A stretch of 64,000 bases of DNA, taken from the NCBI GenBank assembly GCA_035649735.1, contig DASRIZ010000454.1, positions 1,519-65,518 on the forward strand, read 5' to 3'. The stretch's first letter is position 1. Every line of letters begins with the position of its first letter. Shown one piece after another: positions 30,113 to 35,407 of the stretch. The stretch comes from Blastocatellia bacterium. GTDB taxonomy: Bacteria > Acidobacteriota > Blastocatellia > UBA7656. The notes below the pieces were generated by a model. It ran no database searches, was not told the origin of the DNA, and was given only the letters and a program-made list of their open reading frames with translations. Both the position numbers and the translations under genes were made by a program.

Positions 30113-31375
30113 TCAGAATCCAATTTTGTCGATAAGATCGATGACGTGCGGGGTATCCGCCTGGACTATGCTGACCCTCTCCGCGAAGTCCTTATTCTCC
30201 GCGAAGAAGCTCGTCAAGCTGTGCTTCTTGGGTGACCAATTCTCTCTCACCTTCGTCGTCGGTTTGTCCTTTTTTTTCGTTTTTTCCTTCTGCTGTTCCT
30301 TCTTCCAATCTGCCTCACGTCCGATGTCGATCTCGTCGATGGGGTAGGTGAGATGAATCGTGAATTCGTTGTCACCGTTTTCATCTAACAACATTTGCAA
30401 CGTCTCCCGTTCCGGATTGCCGTGCTCGCCGTTTCCCGAAAACACATAGTGGTCGGCGGTGACACGCTGGAAGAAGACACGATCAATGTTACGGTCACTT
30501 CCGTGATGCGGCATTTTGAGGATATTCACGTGCATCTTGCCCTTCTTCAGAAGGCCCGCCAACTCCAAGCCTTCCAGGATCTTGTCGCCGCGGGCGTCAC
30601 CCGTCAGTAGCATACTCTTCTTACTAACCTCTGCTAGCAGCACCAGGCTCGACAGATTGGCAACCGAGGTATCGGTGAACGATGCGAGCGCCTTCTTTGT
30701 CTTCTTATCGGCCTCGTTCTTCTTAAGGAATGCGTCGTGATCCTTCTGTAATTTAATCAGCTCAGCTTTCATTGGCCCGGCCACTGTGATCTTTAGCCCT
30801 TTCCCGATGTCTATCGGAGCGCCGTTCTTCTCCGCAATGACGAGCTTCTCGCCGAACTGGGGATTGATTCGAAGCTGCAGGTTTCTGGCATCGTCGCGAA
30901 GCCTGAATCCCTGCCCGACACTGGCGAGGACCCGCGCCGCGTCCGGATCGAGACCTTCGGTGTCGGGCTCGCCGCTTAACGACGCAGCCCCAAACGACGC
31001 TTTCACGGAGGCCACCAATTCGTCGGGTGTATTGCCGATGATGTCGTCGAATGTGTTGTGCCAAAAGCTGCGGATCTTTAGCGGCAAAGGCTGTTGTGAT
31101 GCCTTGGCCTCGACGAGTTCCTTGGTTAGTTCCAGGATGCCGTTGATGTGGTCGTCGTCGATGTGACTGACCATCATCAAGTCGACCGGGAGAGATTCGT
31201 TGTTGCCAAGTCCGCGCGCTTTCCTTATTTGCCCGAGCCGCGGCTCTAAATGCGGCTTATAAACTTGTGAAGGGCCGCCGTCGATCAGGACAAGGCCGGG
31301 TTCGTCTTTCGAGCCATAGTGCACGATCAAACAGTCGCCCTTTCGAGCCCGTCTTACATCCATGCTAAAGATCAT
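30113..31375 (-). CDS. MBL-fold metallo-hydrolase (ComEC-like HHGS variant) with Lys-rich C-terminal tail; third gene of patatin-S8-MBL operon
   Basis: DCLIVHYG...LIDGGP, SHIDDDH (variant HxHxDH), LTGDA, MPHHGS motifs; GGAGG RBS 6 nt upstream of ATG at 31375; no signal peptide. Confidence 0.6.
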   Translation of the reverse strand: MIFSMDVRRARKGDCLIVHYGSKDEPGLVLIDGGPSQVYKPHLEPRLGQIRKARGLGNNESLPVDLMMVSHIDDDHINGILELTKELVEAKASQQPLPLKIRSFWHNTFDDIIGNTPDELVASVKASFGAASLSGEPDTEGLDPDAARVLASVGQGFRLRDDARNLQLRINPQFGEKLVIAEKNGAPIDIGKGLKITVAGPMKAELIKLQKDHDAFLKKNEADKKTKKALASFTDTSVANLSSLVLLAEVSKKSMLLTGDARGDKILEGLELAGLLKKGKMHVNILKMPHHGSDRNIDRVFFQRVTADHYVFSGNGEHGNPERETLQMLLDENGDNEFTIHLTYPIDEIDIGREADWKKEQQKEKTKKKDKPTTKVRENWSPKKHSLTSFFAENKDFAERVSIVQADTPHVIDLIDKIGF

Positions 31376-31386
31376 GACTTGCCTCC

Positions 31387-33300
31387 TCAGATTTTTTGGA
31401 ATGCTCGGAGCACATCCAACATTCCGTTTCCCTGGAAACTGCGTTCGCGGCCGAGATCGGTTGCGCTTTCGCAGAGAATTCGCTTGATCCTTCGCGGCTC
31501 GCCGATCAGCTCGGCGTAGCGCGCCAATAACATAGCCGCTGCCCCGCTGACGTGCGGAGCCGCCATACTCGTTCCATCGAGTTCGCCCCAGCCGCGATCC
31601 GGAAGGCACGACTCGATTCGTTCACCTGGGGCGACCAAGTCCGGCTTCAGTCGGCCGTCCCCGGTTGGGCCGCGGCTCGAGAAAAAGCTAACGCCGTACG
31701 TGTGCGGTCGGTACCGATGAGTTGCGCCGACGGTGATAACTCCATCTGCATTGCCCGGATCGGTTACGCTGAAAGCCGTGTAGCCTTCGTATGAGCCCTC
31801 CGCGGTTTTGAACCTTTGGTAGCCTAGATTGCCGGCCGCGGCGACGACCACCACACCGCTGTCAACCAAGCGCTCGCATTCGTTGCAGATTGGCGTGCGC
31901 CCGCACGCGAAATTGCGCACATCATGAGGGATCGAAAGACTGAGATTGGCGCCATGTATGCTGATGTACGTATGGCGCTCGTTCAGATAGCGCAGGAATT
32001 GGAGCGCTGCAATGATCGCAAATTCGGTGTCTTCCAAAGACTTGGACAACACACGAAAATCGTAGAGATTTATATCCGGACACATTCCATCAGCGTAATT
32101 TGAATCTGGGTTGGTGCCAGCGGTTCGCCCCTCTGTGCTTGCATTATCGCTCCTCGCCCCGAGGATACCTGCAACATGGGTTCCATGTCCGCCGCCACGG
32201 ACCGGCGTTTTTGGGTCGATCTCGATGAATTTCTCTACTAGTTCCCAATGGATCGGTCGATCATTCTCGGCATCCTTTGCCAGTTCGTGCAGTTTTTTGG
32301 TCGCCTCTTCTTCAGTCAGTGTTTCCGTTCGACCCTCCAGCAATTCCTTCAGCCTTTTCTTGAAGGCGGGTGTCTTTGTATCGAGATTGTCGAGACTGAC
32401 AATCCCTCGAATATTGCTGAAGTCGAACGCCCTTACGATGCGGCACTTACCGTTCGCGTCATTAAACGCAGGGTGCGTGCCGTCGATGCCCGAATCCAAC
32501 ACTGCCCAACTGATCCCGTTGCACTTCACGTTGAATAGCGTCCGGGCGGCGTCAGCTTTGACTGCCGGCACCGATTTGGCAAGAGCAGGCAACACCCTGC
32601 GATTGAGTGAAATCTGAAAGACTTGCGGTTCCTTACTCCATCTGGTTGCGTCCTTAAGCTGTAAGTCCTTCTGAATTTCTTTGAAGAGCTCGCTGAGCGT
32701 TTTGACAATAGCGTCAGGGCTCTTGATCCTCGCCATCGCCTCGATGATATCGCCCCGTGATGCCGGCGTGTTCTTGTTTTTGGCGCCGGCCCACACAACG
32801 ATTCCCGCCAGGGCAACATAGCGATCCAATGCCTTGAATTCGGCTAAGTCCTCAGCACGTTTGGCCCTCTCCTCCTCATTCTTGGCGTGGGCCCAGTCGA
32901 TTATTGCTTTGATTTTGGGCCGCAACAGATCTTCTTTTACATAGGCACCTATTCGCTCTTGTACCTTCGGATCTTGCCACCATTTCGTCATGGGCACGAT
33001 GAAACGAATCACCTCTCGAAACGAAAGACGCGCTGCTACGAGGCCTTGAAGATATGCGACCTGCGACAACGCATTATTGCGGATCTTTTTCACTTCTCGA
33101 AGCCGGTCGGCGATCAGAACGGCCACGGGACCGGCCGCCCTCTCCCTGGTTAGCGTAATCAGCAAATCAATCGCGTCGTAAGGTTTCGCTGCAAACGCGA
33201 TCCAGACGTCCCCGAGGACCGGCGAATCCTGTAACTGGCGGCGATCGCTTGAGTGGCCGAGGAGGACCAGATCGACTAGGTCTCGCGAAGTAATATCCAT
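31387..33300 (-). CDS. Subtilase (S8 peptidase) with ~250-aa N-terminal domain of unknown function; second gene of operon
   Basis: Catalytic triad motifs DSGID (Asp), HGTHVAG (His), GTSMAAPHVSG (Ser) in C-terminal 2/3; N-terminal 250 aa unmatched; no signal peptide; start 3 nt after patatin stop. Confidence 0.75.
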   Translation of the reverse strand: MDITSRDLVDLVLLGHSSDRRQLQDSPVLGDVWIAFAAKPYDAIDLLITLTRERAAGPVAVLIADRLREVKKIRNNALSQVAYLQGLVAARLSFREVIRFIVPMTKWWQDPKVQERIGAYVKEDLLRPKIKAIIDWAHAKNEEERAKRAEDLAEFKALDRYVALAGIVVWAGAKNKNTPASRGDIIEAMARIKSPDAIVKTLSELFKEIQKDLQLKDATRWSKEPQVFQISLNRRVLPALAKSVPAVKADAARTLFNVKCNGISWAVLDSGIDGTHPAFNDANGKCRIVRAFDFSNIRGIVSLDNLDTKTPAFKKRLKELLEGRTETLTEEEATKKLHELAKDAENDRPIHWELVEKFIEIDPKTPVRGGGHGTHVAGILGARSDNASTEGRTAGTNPDSNYADGMCPDINLYDFRVLSKSLEDTEFAIIAALQFLRYLNERHTYISIHGANLSLSIPHDVRNFACGRTPICNECERLVDSGVVVVAAAGNLGYQRFKTAEGSYEGYTAFSVTDPGNADGVITVGATHRYRPHTYGVSFFSSRGPTGDGRLKPDLVAPGERIESCLPDRGWGELDGTSMAAPHVSGAAAMLLARYAELIGEPRRIKRILCESATDLGRERSFQGNGMLDVLRAFQKI

Positions 33301-33303
33301 GAG

Positions 33304-34542
33304 TCACACTCCAGCGGCCGGGTAAGGGAAACCAGCCGGCTTTGTTATTGACGTATCGACGTGTCGGCGCAAAGCAGCATCGCACACCGCGTATCCCCAG
33401 TTAATCAGTCGCTCCTGCACATCGTCGTCCAGACGTTTGAGTCGCGTCGGCGTCTCGGCCAGTGCCGTCGTCCGGCCCAGCGGACACGGCAGCGGGTCAG
33501 TCAACTGGTAGTCGGCAATATCAGTACGAATACCCCAATAGACGCCTTGACGAACGCCTGCTTTGAACGAGTCGATCAGTTGCCGCTTGCGTAACGAACG
33601 CACCTGATTGTCCACCAACTCAAGGACTCTATACGCGTGACGAGCCCAGTCGCTCTTTGGTTCCTCTTCCGCTTGGAGCTTCCCGCCTGCGTCGCTGACC
33701 AAGACGGTCTGATAGTTTTTCCAGGCAGTTTCCAGACCGAGATTGTCGTAAACGCCTCCGTCGGTGAGAAACACGCGTGTGGTGAACGGTTTGCGCTGGA
33801 GGTCGCGGCCCGAGTTTGGGGTAAACGCTTCTTCCTCGAGCCGCATCTCGAACGGCGAGAGCACCGGCGGAAACGCAGAAGACGCCGCGACTGCTTGCGC
33901 CAGCGGGATCGTCGGCGTCTTCACCTCGCCCACGCGGTAGTCACGCATGTATGGCTTCATGAAACGCCAGAGCGCGCCCGACTGAATGTTGGTTGCGTTA
34001 ATCACAAACCGAGGCGAATCCGGAAGATCCTGGAGTGTTCTGCCGTGAAAGAGATGTCGGTCATAGGCGCGCGCAATTCGATCACTCACCCTTCCGGGCA
34101 AAGCTATCCCTAGAACGATGGCGTCCGCGTCAATCGTCTCTTCTCCGAGCGCGCGTACGGGTGCAACAACTTCGGCAACGAAGTCGTCGCGGACCCGCGC
34201 GGGATCGAAGCTGAGCCGACCCCACTTCAGGCCCAACACCCCTGCGGTTATGGACCCTCCTGAGACGCTTGAGATTCTCTGAACACCTTGCAACAGGCGT
34301 GTTTCGTAAAGTCGCCAGAGGGATCCGATGTGAAATAACATTGCCCTATAGCCGCCGCCCGAGAGGCAAAGCGCGATGCCGGGTTTCACCTGAGTTGCGC
34401 CGCCGTCGGCATCCGGTTCGATCGACGTTACAGGCGAAGCGGCCTCAGCTGGGCGTGACGGATCTAATTCATTGGTCACAGCTGTAATACCTCCGTTAAA
34501 TTCGGCGCTTAAGCTTGACGCGAAACTCAGATTTGGCCTCAA
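33304..34542 (-). CDS. Patatin-like phospholipase; first gene of operon
   Basis: Oxyanion GGGYRA, nucleophile elbow SVSGGS (GxSxG variant), catalytic DGGVYDNLG; no signal peptide. Confidence 0.75.
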   Translation of the reverse strand: MRPNLSFASSLSAEFNGGITAVTNELDPSRPAEAASPVTSIEPDADGGATQVKPGIALCLSGGGYRAMLFHIGSLWRLYETRLLQGVQRISSVSGGSITAGVLGLKWGRLSFDPARVRDDFVAEVVAPVRALGEETIDADAIVLGIALPGRVSDRIARAYDRHLFHGRTLQDLPDSPRFVINATNIQSGALWRFMKPYMRDYRVGEVKTPTIPLAQAVAASSAFPPVLSPFEMRLEEEAFTPNSGRDLQRKPFTTRVFLTDGGVYDNLGLETAWKNYQTVLVSDAGGKLQAEEEPKSDWARHAYRVLELVDNQVRSLRKRQLIDSFKAGVRQGVYWGIRTDIADYQLTDPLPCPLGRTTALAETPTRLKRLDDDVQERLINWGYAVCDAALRRHVDTSITKPAGFPYPAAGV

Positions 34543-34603: not shown

Positions 34604-35407
34604 CTAATCACTAGGGTTTGGGGCTATCCGCATATACGCCTCACGCCAATCGCCGGTGTTGTCCCAAACGAACGGAGTTTGCACGGTGGTCCGCGCGTGG
34701 CTTGCAGTCTCGAGGAGATCGAGCGCGATACCAACGATCGCTCGTTGCATCCCCACATCATCCGGCTTACCGCAAGGGTTGCCGAGAGGAAAATCGGTGA
34801 ACACAAAGCGGGGAACGCCGCACTGCTCGACGATATCTCTAGCCGAGCCAATCACCACGGTTGAAACGCCATTTGTCTCGAGGCGTCGAGCTATCAGACT
34901 CCCGGTCTGATGACAGACCGGTCAGAGCGGTACCACAAGCGCAATATCGACGGCATCCGCGCGGCAAAGTTCAAGGACTGCAGGCGCGTACTCGTCTACG
35001 GTGCGACGCTGACTGAAGTCCGTCGGCACTCCGTAGAATCGTGACGAGAGACTGCCGATCCGACCGCTGGCCGCAAATTCAGCAAGCCGTCTGAGCGGAA
35101 GAAAGGTCTCTACATCGCGTGTGTGCGTAGCCTTTTTATCCCAGGAGCGGTGGTCCGTATACAGTGCGACTGGCGGAGGTTCGGTAGGTGCACCGTAAAC
35201 CGCCGCCACTCGACACGTTTCCTGGTTCAACGCCGCAGTCGTGATTAAAGCGACCCGGCTCTGGCTGAGTGGCTTCGCGAGCGGCGCGAACGGAGCGTCC
35301 TGGTGGTATGCCCAACGGTAAGGATTCTCATAACCGCGGGCGAGATAGTATTCGCGAGACTTGTCGATATAGCTGACGAAAATACGTTGCGCGGAGTCTA
35401 GAGCCAT
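34604..35407 (-). CDS. Candidate selenoprotein (GrdB/PrdB-family-like) with in-frame UGA at 34924-34922 followed by UxxC motif
   Basis: Two same-frame ORFs separated only by TGA; no ATG at start of second ORF; read-through gives ...ALVVPL-U-PVCHQTGS...; perfect hairpin immediately 3' of UGA. Confidence 0.5.
34902..34921 (-). promoter_or_regulatory. SECIS-like hairpin immediately downstream of in-frame UGA
   Basis: UGA-CCGGUCUG-UCAU-CAGACCGG (8-bp perfect stem, 4-nt loop); second weaker hairpin ~+21 to +45. Confidence 0.4.

What the first reader, a model, noticed from the sequence alone, without database searches (positions are those of the whole stretch)
30113..34542. Tightly coupled cytoplasmic patatin - subtilase(+unknown N-domain) - MBL-hydrolase operon next to a TA module: candidate undescribed conflict/defence cassette
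Three minus-strand genes are packed with 3-nt and 11-nt spacers, the second preceded by a GGAGG RBS. Gene 1 is a patatin-like phospholipase with intact GGGxR, S-x-S-x-G and DGG catalytic motifs. Gene 2 is an S8 subtilase with intact D/H/S motifs fused to a ~250-aa N-terminal domain with no recognisable signature. Gene 3 is an MBL-fold hydrolase (variant HIDDDH, HHGS) with a Lys-rich tail. None has a signal peptide, so they are not ordinary secreted degradative enzymes. The operon converges on an M14 peptidase gene and lies next to a Phd/YoeB toxin-antitoxin pair. Patatin phospholipases are established abortive-infection effectors in CBASS (CapV). Proteases and MBL nucleases/hydrolases recur in bacterial conflict systems. 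This particular triad matches no named system I know of. Inference: a protease-gated lipid/membrane-attacking effector module, with the subtilase N-domain or the MBL protein acting as sensor.
Basis: partly seen in the sequence, partly recalled or inferred. Interest (0 to 1): 0.82.

Follow-up and report, generated by a model that had tools for sequence, protein, structure and literature searches.

The report
Subtilase-licensed nuclease module with patatin
The three genes are real and co-transcribed, but the core is a recently recognised kind of bacterial suicide/defence module, a protease paired with a latent DNA-cutting enzyme; here the protease is a subtilase that keeps its own pro-domain, and the phospholipase is an optional, previously undescribed add-on.

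Summary
Three cytoplasmic minus-strand genes (patatin, S8 subtilase, MBL-fold protein) lie 3 and 11 nt apart, with catalytic motifs intact.

The interpretation needs revising.
- The conserved unit is the subtilase-MBL pair. It is adjacent in all 80 related genome loci, and the two proteins co-evolve (r = 0.83).
- The MBL protein is a collinear homologue of Avs1a/HamM/LmuA-type pro-nucleases, so it is the likely gated effector, not a sensor. MBL partners of S8 proteases were named as a third clade in a 2025 preprint but not studied.
- The "unknown" 250-aa N-domain is a subtilase I9-type pro-domain carrying a ~130-aa helical insertion. It is modelled docked as in pro-subtilisins and CspB.
- Patatin is an accessory, present upstream in about 28 of 80 loci, with repeated gain and loss. 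The same patatin family also sits beside MBL pairs with other putative proteases. I found no description of that link.
- The Phd/YoeB pair is incidental, and no fused sensor or defence island is present.

Most likely mechanism: a trigger releases the pro-domain, the subtilase cleaves two MBL gating loops, and a DNase kills the cell. Patatin may be a second effector.

Verdict: a new variant of a known kind, of moderate interest.

The parts
33304..34479 (-). Patatin-like phospholipase gene, an accessory component. The listed ORF runs to the TTG at 34542; the probable start is the GTG at 34479.
   Evidence: Pfam Patatin 3.7e-17. Motifs GGGYR, SVSGG and DGG are intact. The family is typically 378 aa, and a 99%-identical protein has 391 aa. 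A homologue lies upstream of the subtilase in about 28 of 80 genome loci at 62-81% identity.
33301..33303 (-). 3-nt spacer (CTC) between the patatin stop codon and the subtilase ATG.
   Evidence: Sequence. The same 1-9 nt spacing occurs in 17 of 23 related loci.
31387..33300 (-). S8 subtilase gene, 637 aa.
   Evidence: Pfam Peptidase_S8 2.2e-40. PADLOC 'subtilase' PDLC03014 6e-46. Full-length homologues occur in at least 152 species. D269, H375 and S578 are conserved.
32581..33300 (-). N-terminal region of the subtilase, aa 1-240: an I9-like pro-domain.
32635..33021 (-). Helical insertion in the pro-domain, aa ~94-222. It lies between strand 3 and the last strand (aa 227-232) and is a candidate regulatory or sensor element.
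   Evidence: Secondary structure and pLDDT of about 90. The sequence is variable among homologues except W107/W108 and LDRY. The sensor role is inferred only.
31390..32580 (-). S8 catalytic domain, aa 241-637, starting near KSVPAVKAD. It carries a ~70-aa helical insertion between catalytic D269 and H375.
   Evidence: It is extremely conserved from aa 440 to the C-terminus.
31376..31386 (-). 11-nt spacer with the GGAGG ribosome-binding site, between the subtilase stop codon and the MBL ATG.
   Evidence: Sequence. The spacer is 8-16 nt in 70 of 78 related loci.
30113..31375 (-). MBL-fold protein, 420 aa: a putative latent DNase (pro-nuclease) of the Avs1a/HamM/LmuA type.
   Evidence: PADLOC LmuA PDLC03854 2.7e-50, RTasMBL 2.1e-32, Avs1a 6.6e-27. 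NCBIfam Avs1a 3.4e-43, below the equivalog cut-off, and ComEC/Rec2 2.9e-07. A family profile against an annotated Avs1a gives E = 1.8e-34 and is collinear. The gene is adjacent to the subtilase in every locus that has room.
30935..31042 (-). Variable segment 1 of the MBL protein, aa ~112-147: candidate gating loop 1.
   Evidence: Low conservation between conserved blocks. It aligns to the inter-block region of Avs1a where the known cut site lies, I133/I134. Cleavage here is inferred.
30680..30763 (-). Variable Lys-rich segment 2 of the MBL protein, aa ~205-232: candidate gating loop 2. It ends in the semi-conserved A-L-A-[AS]-[YF].
   Evidence: It lies at about the same position as the second cut site of VcMBL/EpiAvs1a, I232/I234. 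Cleavage here is inferred.

Best explanation
This is a cytoplasmic, protease-licensed cell-killing module of the protease-MBL kind.

Core pair. The MBL-fold protein is a latent ComEC-like DNase kept off by two insertion loops. The co-translated S8 subtilase is its dedicated activating protease.

How it differs from the studied versions. In the studied systems a trypsin-like protease is fused to a STAND, Hachiman, Lamassu or RT sensor. Here the subtilase carries no such sensor. It keeps an I9-type pro-domain, docked on the catalytic domain as in pro-subtilisins and CspB. That pro-domain is enlarged by a ~130-aa helical insertion.

Proposed sequence of events:
1. In the resting state, the pro-domain blocks the protease.
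2. A trigger, most likely an infection or mobile-element cue acting on the helical insertion, displaces or destroys the pro-domain.
3. The subtilase cuts the two gating loops of the MBL protein.
4. The freed DNase degrades DNA and the cell dies or arrests.

Patatin. The patatin gene, translationally coupled upstream in about one third of loci, is an optional add-on. It most likely acts as a second, membrane-directed effector under the same protease.

What is shown: gene anatomy, homology, fold, co-occurrence, co-evolution and patchy horizontal distribution. What is inferred: every activation step, the nature of the trigger, the defence role and the role of patatin.
For: - MBL homology to protease-activated pro-nucleases: PADLOC LmuA 2.7e-50, RTasMBL, Avs1a; NCBIfam Avs1a 3.4e-43. 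A profile of 64 S8-linked MBLs matches an annotated Avs1a at E = 1.8e-34. The match is collinear and shares the HIDxDH and HHGS motifs.
- Two poorly conserved segments, aa ~112-147 and ~205-232, lie between the conserved blocks. These are the positions where the experimentally mapped cut sites fall: I133 and I232 in VcMBL, I134 and I234 in EpiAvs1a.
- The subtilase and MBL genes are adjacent in all 80 genome loci with room, with spacers of 8-16 nt in 70 of 78. Pairwise distances correlate at r = 0.83.
- The literature establishes the mechanism for the trypsin clade and lists an S8-associated MBL clade.
- All three proteins are cytoplasmic.
- Distribution is patchy: at least 152 of 185,579 species across more than 8 phyla, with 50-73% identity between phyla.
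- The pair occurs on conjugative plasmids. On pCMU01 it sits directly after a cyclase-E2-TIR operon and near ImmA/IrrE, an integrase and IS21.
- Patatin link: present in about 28 of 80 loci with 1-9 nt spacers. Of 21 patatin-anchored metagenome loci with at least 2 kb on both sides, 12-13 hold a protease-MBL pair. These include pairs with a different putative HExxH protease, in either gene order and on either strand.
Against: - There is no experimental datum for any S8-MBL pair.
- Cleavage sites are not mapped, and the shared 'A-L|small' motif has too little information to count.
- There is no fused or adjacent sensor, so the trigger is unknown.
- Flanking genes are mostly housekeeping. Only about 10 of 128 flanking proteins hit PADLOC models, and most of those hits are generic. 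Nothing else in the window hits.
- The pair is syntenic within Pyrinomonadaceae, between a LytTR regulator gene and an RND pump operon. That looks vertically inherited rather than mobile.
- The module is absent from viral contigs and phage records.
- Patatin co-evolves only weakly with the subtilase (r = 0.39).
- Patatins of the same family stand alone in roughly 40% of informative loci, and they show no indel or signature that distinguishes linked from unlinked copies. That argues against obligatory proteolytic licensing of patatin.
Confidence: 0.6

Rival explanations
1. The core works as in the best explanation, but patatin is not a substrate of the subtilase. It would be an independent one-gene membrane-attacking or stress-response system that often co-localises and is co-transcribed with protease-MBL pairs. 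Alternatively it acts upstream, for example as a membrane-damage sensor or activator.
For: - Patatin is absent from two thirds of S8-MBL loci and scattered over the subtilase tree.
- Its co-evolution with the subtilase is weak, r = 0.39.
- The same family occurs alone in about 8 of 21 well-flanked loci.
- No feature separates linked from unlinked copies.
- The position is flexible in the HExxH-type loci, before or after the pair and on the opposite strand in L132, L105 and L145.
Against: - The conserved 1-9 nt spacing to the subtilase start in 17 of 23 loci argues for stoichiometric co-expression.
- Association with at least two unrelated putative protease classes, each paired with an MBL, is hard to explain by chance co-location when these modules are not in defence islands.
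Confidence: 0.25
2. The module is not an anti-phage or anti-plasmid system. It would be a regulated self-destruction or remodelling device for stress, development or nutrient scavenging. One version is controlled DNA and lipid turnover during starvation or dormancy in soil bacteria, by analogy with the Csp subtilase cascade that licenses a lytic enzyme in spore germination.
For: - The chromosomal context is housekeeping, and the locus is stable within Pyrinomonadaceae.
- There is no enrichment of known defence genes nearby.
- The best structural matches include the CspB/CspC/CspA germination proteases.
- Very high sequence conservation, about 70% identity over hundreds of clusters, suggests strong purifying selection rather than an arms race.
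Against: - The module is present in only about 0.1% of species, with phylogenetically incongruent, cross-phylum near-identity.
- It occurs on conjugative plasmids next to TIR and cyclase genes.
- Every experimentally studied relative of this MBL family is an anti-phage effector.
Confidence: 0.12
3. These are ordinary secreted or lipid-catabolic degradative enzymes that merely happen to be neighbours.
For: The window neighbours include secreted S9 and M14 peptidases.
Against: - None of the three proteins has a signal peptide or transmembrane segment.
- The pairing, order and spacing are invariant over 80 loci in many phyla.
- The MBL protein is homologous to defence pro-nucleases, not to lactamases or lipid enzymes.
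- The M14 and S9 genes are not conserved next to the module.
Confidence: 0.03

Closest known systems
Trypsin-like protease + MBL pro-nuclease modules: HamMAB, AVAST Avs1/Avs2/Avs4-MBL, Lamassu 'hydrolase-protease', DRT UG9 variant (Tuck et al. 2025, PMC12799240; Evans et al. 2025, PMC12642450; Huang et al. 2025, bioRxiv 2025.09.03.673762)
   Same: The MBL protein is homologous and collinear, shares the metal motifs and has two inter-block variable segments. A dedicated protease gene lies adjacent and co-evolves with it. The module is cytoplasmic and patchily distributed.
   Different: The protease is an S8 subtilase, not trypsin-like. It is not fused to a STAND, HamA, LmuA or RT sensor and has no such neighbour. 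The gene order is protease then MBL, rather than MBL upstream. The protease retains an enlarged pro-domain. An optional patatin gene is present.
MBL 'Clade 3', encoded next to S8 subtilisin-like proteases (Evans et al. 2025, PMC12642450, text and Fig. 1B legend)
   Same: By definition it is an MBL-fold protein of the protease-associated family encoded next to an S8 protease. The window pair fits that description.
   Different: The clade is only named in the paper. No architecture, mechanism, pro-domain or patatin association is given in the accessible text (0 occurrences of 'patatin'). I could not check whether the window protein falls inside their tree.
Canu (caspase-nuclease) and other caspase-MBL modules (Tuck et al. 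2025)
   Same: The logic is the same: a protease licenses an MBL nuclease. One patatin locus (L136) carries an ORF with a caspase/CHAT-like C-terminus followed by two MBL genes.
   Different: The protease class differs. Canu components are described as fused, whereas these are separate genes.
Clostridial Csp subtilases (CspB/CspA/CspC) that activate pro-SleC
   Same: These are intracellular S8 proteases whose I9 pro-domain stays associated, and which license a latent hydrolase by cleavage. They are the best PDB sequence hits and among the top fold hits.
   Different: The substrate (a cortex lytic enzyme) and the biology (spore germination) are unrelated. There is no MBL partner. Sequence identity is only about 21-29% in the catalytic domain.
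CBASS CapV and other patatin effectors of abortive-infection systems
   Same: It is a patatin fold with an intact Ser-Asp dyad and oxyanion motif, placed in a conflict-type operon.
   Different: There is only a marginal hit to the PADLOC phospholipase effector model, E = 0.0011. There is no cyclase or nucleotide-sensing domain. The C-terminal ~140 aa are specific to this family.

Membership tests
Protease-MBL pro-nuclease defence modules (broad kind) | MBL-fold protein homologous to Avs1a/HamM/LmuA-associated nucleases, with ComEC-like metal motifs | tested here: met
   PADLOC LmuA 2.7e-50, RTasMBL 2.1e-32, Avs1a 6.6e-27. NCBIfam Avs1a 3.4e-43 and ComEC/Rec2 2.9e-07. Family profile against an annotated Avs1a gives E = 1.8e-34, with HIDxDH and HHGS shared.
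Protease-MBL pro-nuclease defence modules (broad kind) | Dedicated protease encoded adjacent to the MBL protein and co-evolving with it | tested here: met
   The genes are adjacent in all 80 genome loci with room. Spacers are 8-16 nt in 70 of 78. The distance correlation is r = 0.83.
Protease-MBL pro-nuclease defence modules (broad kind) | Two active-site-blocking insertion loops that carry the protease cut sites | tested here: inconclusive
   Two variable segments (aa ~112-147 and ~205-232) lie where the Avs1a inter-block regions and published cut sites lie. No MBL structure model was made and no cleavage data exist.
Protease-MBL pro-nuclease defence modules (broad kind) | Protease fused to, or partnered with, an infection sensor (STAND, Hachiman, Lamassu, RT, etc.) | tested here: not met
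   The subtilase consists only of a pro-domain plus the S8 domain. No recurrent third gene other than patatin was found. No PADLOC hits occur in the window.
Protease-MBL pro-nuclease defence modules (broad kind) | Proteolysis-dependent DNase activity and anti-phage protection | not testable with these tools
   This needs biochemistry and phage assays.
MBL clade 3 (S8-associated) of Evans et al. 2025 | MBL of the protease-associated family encoded next to an S8 subtilisin-like protease | tested here: met
   Searches show the pairing. Placement in their tree could not be checked.
AVAST type 1 (Avs1) | STAND NTPase with an N-terminal trypsin-like protease, encoded downstream of avs1a | tested here: not met
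   There is no STAND or trypsin-like gene in the window or in related loci. The NCBIfam Avs1a score of 148 bits is far below the 420-bit equivalog cut-off.
Lamassu (hydrolase-protease type) | LmuB SMC-like ATPase (and LmuC) in the operon | tested here: not met
   No SMC-like ORF lies adjacent. PADLOC on the window ORFs gives only a generic ABC ATPase hit 10 kb away.
CBASS (patatin/CapV type) | CD-NTase cyclase gene together with a nucleotide-activated patatin effector | tested here: not met
   No cyclase is present in the window. The patatin hits the PADLOC phospholipase effector model only at E = 0.0011.
IetAS | IetS-type subtilase paired with the IetA ATPase | tested here: not met
   IetS models hit only at 2.9e-06 or weaker, over part of the S8 domain. 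NCBIfam IteS scores 15.6 bits against a cut-off of 900. No ATPase partner is present.
Subtilases with an I9-type pro-domain (zymogen architecture) | N-terminal beta-alpha-beta-beta-alpha-beta pro-domain docked on the catalytic domain, followed by the S8 domain | tested here: met

The most novel reading that the evidence does not exclude
The triad is a dual-effector suicide switch with no separate sensor protein. The helical insertion in the subtilase pro-domain would be the infection sensor, so that pro-domain release is the trigger. The freed protease would license both a DNase (MBL) and a phospholipase (patatin). That would make this patatin family a new class of proteolytically activated effector. 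It would have been recruited independently by subtilase-MBL, HExxH-metalloprotease-MBL and caspase-like-MBL modules.
Probability: 0.2. Interest if true: 0.7.

Novelty: new variant of a known kind. Interest (0 to 1): 0.5.

Why it matters
Protease-licensed effectors have become a major theme in bacterial immunity, with parallels to caspase/CAD and gasdermin. All mechanistic work so far is on trypsin- or caspase-type proteases fused to known sensors.

This locus represents the unstudied subtilase branch in its simplest form, two proteins with no sensor partner. That turns 'how is the protease switched on?' into a question about a single pro-domain, which can be tested by deletion and binding screens.

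The recurrent coupling of one patatin family to MBL pairs with different putative proteases suggests an unrecognised extra layer, membrane plus DNA attack. It also adds a candidate to the list of protease-associated effectors.

The weak defence-island signal and the vertical stability in Pyrinomonadaceae caution that such modules may serve stress or developmental cell death as well as phage defence.

Tried and rejected
- I looked for the N-domain fused to other proteins, as a test of a promiscuous sensor domain. It is always N-terminal in proteins of about 600-770 aa, or in fragments. The promiscuous-sensor idea was dropped.
- I looked for Lamassu, AVAST or CBASS partners in the window and in related loci. 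None were found.
- I tested whether the Phd/YoeB pair or the M14/S9 peptidase genes are conserved neighbours. There were no hits in 160 loci.
- I tested for a defence-island context. 128 flanking proteins scanned against PADLOC gave only sparse, mostly generic hits.
- I searched viral contigs and phage records. There are no relatives, only generic S8 domains.
- I looked for an indel or signature separating protease-linked from unlinked patatins, which would hint at a cleavage loop. None was found.
- I tried to classify the alternative partner proteins c4 and c6 with Pfam, PADLOC, NCBIfam and PDB. There were no hits, so c4 is called a metalloprotease from its thermolysin-like HExxH...EAxxD motif alone.
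- The promoter and terminator scan was uninformative.
- The literature was searched for the patatin + S8 + MBL combination. None was found.
- My own greedy ORF caller sometimes picked antisense ORFs. Counts were therefore cross-checked with tblastn.
Full report

Yes. One search lists three minus-strand ORFs: 33304-34542 (412 aa), 31387-33300 (637 aa) and 30113-31609. The last has an internal ATG at 31375 that gives a 420-aa product.

The sequence reads ...GTG TGA CTC ATG... between genes 1 and 2, a 3-nt spacer. Between genes 2 and 3 it reads ...ATC TGA GGAGGCAAGTC ATG..., an 11-nt spacer that contains GGAGG.

Pfam finds Patatin (3.7e-17) and Peptidase_S8 (2.2e-40, aa 262-626). It finds nothing for the third protein. 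None of the proteins has a signal peptide or a hydrophobic segment.

Small corrections:
- The GGAGG precedes gene 3, not gene 2.
- Patatin most likely starts at the GTG at 34479, which has its own GGAGG. The database twin has 391 aa and the family norm is 378 aa.
- 'HIDDDH/HHGS' is the normal motif of this MBL family, not a variant. A bona fide Avs1a has HIDADH and SHHGS.

**2. What is conserved?**

A scan of one genome per species found 152 species that encode a full-length relative of the subtilase, N-domain included (48-73% identity). The best 80 loci were fetched. The hosts include:
- Acidobacteriota;
- several proteobacterial classes, among them Bradyrhizobium, Rhodopseudomonas palustris BisB18 and Dongia;
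- Verrucomicrobiota, Gemmatimonadota, Zixibacteria and Bacteroidales;
- a Clostridia MAG and Mycobacterium hubeiense.

In every locus with room, an MBL homologue (45-82% identity) follows the subtilase. The spacer is 8-16 nt in 70 of 78 cases. Pairwise distances of the two proteins correlate at r = 0.83.

Patatin, by contrast, is present immediately upstream in only about 28 of the 80 loci, at 62-81% identity. The spacer is 1-9 nt in 17 of 23 measurable cases. Loci with and without patatin interleave on the subtilase tree, and subtilase-patatin distances correlate weakly (r = 0.39).

So the invariant unit is the subtilase-MBL pair, and patatin is a recurrent accessory.

**3. What is the MBL protein?**

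It matches these models:
- PADLOC LmuA PDLC03854 (2.7e-50), RTasMBL (2.1e-32), Avs1a (6.6e-27) and PDC-M48B;
- NCBIfam Avs1a (3.4e-43; 148 bits, well below the 420-bit equivalog cut-off) and ComEC/Rec2.

A profile of 64 S8-linked MBLs aligns end to end with an annotated Avs1a from a Priestia plasmid, at E = 1.8e-34.

The literature now explains this family. In Hachiman, AVAST, Lamassu and DRT variants the MBL protein is a ComEC-like pro-nuclease. Its active site is blocked by two insertion loops. A partner trypsin-like protease cuts both loops and releases a Zn-dependent dsDNase. The mapped sites are I133/I232 in VcMBL and I134/I234 in EpiAvs1a (PMC12799240; PMC12642450).

In the window family, the two stretches of poor conservation are aa ~112-147 and ~205-232. 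They fall between the conserved blocks at about the same positions as the published cut sites.

PMC12642450 also states that protease-associated MBLs form three clades: trypsin-like, caspase-like and 'S8 subtilisin-like'. The last is mentioned but not studied. The window pair fits that third clade by description.

The MBL protein is therefore the probable gated effector, not a sensor.

**4. What is the 'unknown' N-domain?**

Sequence methods give nothing. An exhaustive profile-free search finds 528 cluster representatives. The domain is always at the N-terminus of proteins of about 600-770 aa, or in fragments of such proteins. It is therefore private to this subtilase family and not a shuffled sensor domain.

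AlphaFold2 models are confident: the full-length model has pTM 0.86, and the N-domain alone has pLDDT 87.

It also returns generic ferredoxin-like folds. The elements E44-50, H56-71, E81-84, E87-92 and E227-232 make up the I9 topology. Residues ~94-222 are a helical insertion.

The full-length model aligns best with uncleaved or pro-domain-bound forms:
- pro-subtilisin E, 316 of 355 residues aligned;
- CspB;
- CspC and CspA, about 350 residues aligned.

The pro-domain is thus modelled docked in the canonical inhibitory position. The junction ...N233-R234-x-A-x-P-A239-L240-x-R-S243-V-P... is nearly invariant. It lines up with the AY|AQSVP autoprocessing site of subtilisin BPN'; that comparison rests on my own knowledge of the BPN' sequence, not on a tool result.

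The subtilase is thus built like a zymogen, with an enlarged pro-domain.

**5. What about patatin?**

The family is large and very conserved. A metagenome scan anchored on patatin gave these results:
- Copies with at least ~66% identity are usually followed by the subtilase.
- Several loci have the pair on the opposite strand (L105, L132, L145).

Many more distant copies (57-69% identity) sit next to a different pair: a ~640-aa protein plus an MBL protein. The ~640-aa protein has a thermolysin-like HETTHALLDG...HEAFADI motif. The order is either PAT-x-MBL (L110, L114, L124) or x-MBL-PAT (L117, L128, L139, L143, L157). One locus (L136) has a third kind of partner followed by two MBL genes. The ~640-aa protein has no profile or PDB hit, so calling it a protease is an inference from the motif.

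Among 21 patatin loci with at least 2 kb on both sides, 12-13 hold a protease-MBL pair and about 8 do not. Linked and unlinked patatins differ by no indel or signature.

I found no paper that describes a patatin/protease/MBL combination. The association is real and seems undescribed, but its functional meaning is open.

**6. Context**

The window holds no other defence gene. Its neighbours are S9 and M14 peptidase genes, a TIM-barrel enzyme gene and ApbE. The Phd/YoeB pair is genuine. It lies 3 kb away, and no homologue occurs in any of 160 related loci.

Around relatives, the flanking genes are mostly housekeeping: a PBP, MFS and RND pumps, a LytTR regulator and PGDH. Only about 10 of 128 flanking proteins hit PADLOC models, and most of those hits are generic. 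In Pyrinomonadaceae the locus is syntenic.

On the other side of the balance:
- The pair occurs on conjugative plasmids.
- On Methylorubrum extorquens CM4 pCMU01 it directly follows a cyclase-E2-TIR operon and lies near ImmA/IrrE, an integrase and IS21.
- Divergent S8-MBL pairs are common on rhizobial plasmids.
- The module is not found in viral collections.

**7. Mechanism proposed**

Shown: the anatomy, homologies, fold, co-occurrence, co-evolution and distribution.

Inferred:
1. In the resting state, the pro-domain blocks the subtilase.
2. A trigger acts on the pro-domain, plausibly on its helical insertion, and releases it.
3. The protease cuts the two MBL loops.
4. The DNase kills or arrests the cell.
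5. Patatin, where present, adds membrane damage, possibly licensed by the same protease.

A weak shared 'A-L|small residue' motif occurs at four places: the pro-domain junction, the end of MBL loop 2 (A229-L230-A231), MBL loop 1 (A131-S-L133-S-G135) and patatin (L361-A362, invariant). It gives concrete sites to test but is too short to count as evidence.

**8. Comparison with known systems, and verdict**

The module works like the trypsin-MBL modules and fits the S8 'clade 3' description. It is not AVAST, Lamassu, CBASS or IetAS, because their defining partners are absent; see the membership table.

It differs from the studied modules in five ways:
- the protease class;
- the lack of any fused sensor;
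- the retained, enlarged pro-domain;
- the gene order;
- the optional patatin.

The closest mechanistic analogue outside immunity is the Csp subtilase cascade of clostridial spores.

I rate it a new variant of a known kind, with interest 0.5. The 2025 papers remove much of that novelty. What remains untouched is the sensor-less subtilase architecture and the patatin link.

Noticed in passing
window 34604-35407 (-): The two ORFs 34922-35407 and 34604-34858 are one reading frame interrupted by a single in-frame TGA at 34922-34924, inside the motif L-U-P-V-C-H (UxxC). A perfect 8-bp hairpin (CCGGUCUG-UCAU-CAGACCGG) starts right after the TGA; the fold has z = -2.6. This is a candidate selenoprotein gene with a SECIS-like element, sitting directly upstream of the operon. 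It has no Pfam hit.
   Followed up: partly
L110 2415-5725; also L114, L124, L117, L128, L139, L143, L157: The same patatin family is linked to a different pair: a ~640-aa protein with a thermolysin-like HETTHALLDG...HEAFADI motif, plus an MBL-fold protein that gives weaker Avs1a/LmuA/6A-MBL hits. The order is either PAT-x-MBL or x-MBL-PAT. The ~640-aa protein has no Pfam, PADLOC, NCBIfam or PDB hit. It may be a fourth, metalloprotease class of protease-MBL module.
   Followed up: partly
L136 86-7137: A 654-aa ORF with a caspase/CHAT-like C-terminus (judged by eye only) is followed by two MBL genes, a 390-aa ORF, and then the patatin. The first MBL is 359 aa and hits PADLOC LmuA at 1.5e-68.
   Followed up: no
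L164 (Methylorubrum extorquens CM4 plasmid pCMU01, 268,467-275,142): An operon of adenylate/guanylate cyclase, E2-domain protein and TIR-domain protein lies directly upstream of the S8-MBL pair on a conjugative plasmid, near ImmA/IrrE, an integrase and IS21. This could be a composite system or a small defence island.
   Followed up: no
L101 7569-8275 and L091 7146-7310: An intact patatin is followed by decayed remnants of the pair. L101 has an internally deleted subtilase fragment (aa 439-534) abutting an MBL C-terminal fragment. L091 retains only the first ~55 codons of the subtilase. Both look like snapshots of module loss.
   Followed up: no
L027 7978-9567: A second, divergent MBL-like ORF of 529 aa lies 2 kb upstream of the S8-MBL pair. 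Its N-terminus is 37% identical to the window MBL protein.
   Followed up: no
window 32176-32494 (subtilase aa ~270-375): The S8 catalytic domain carries a conserved, largely helical insertion of ~70 aa between catalytic Asp269 and His375 (FDFSNIRxIVSLDNL...DAENDRPIHWELVEKFI). Classical subtilisins have about 32 residues there. It is a possible second regulatory or substrate-docking element.
   Followed up: no
L008-L031, L080 versus L049, L058, L062, L065, L073, L078 (Pyrinomonadaceae): The family holds two distinct lineages of the pair, at about 68% and about 56% identity to the window. The first lineage sits in a fixed syntenic slot between a LytTR response-regulator gene and an HlyD/AcrB efflux operon. 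That looks like vertical inheritance, which is unusual for a defence module.
   Followed up: partly
L003 8407-8862; L010, L031, L058: IS200/Y1-type transposase genes lie within 1-3 kb of the pair in several acidobacterial loci. In L003 an 'Unstab_antitox' antitoxin gene is also present.
   Followed up: no
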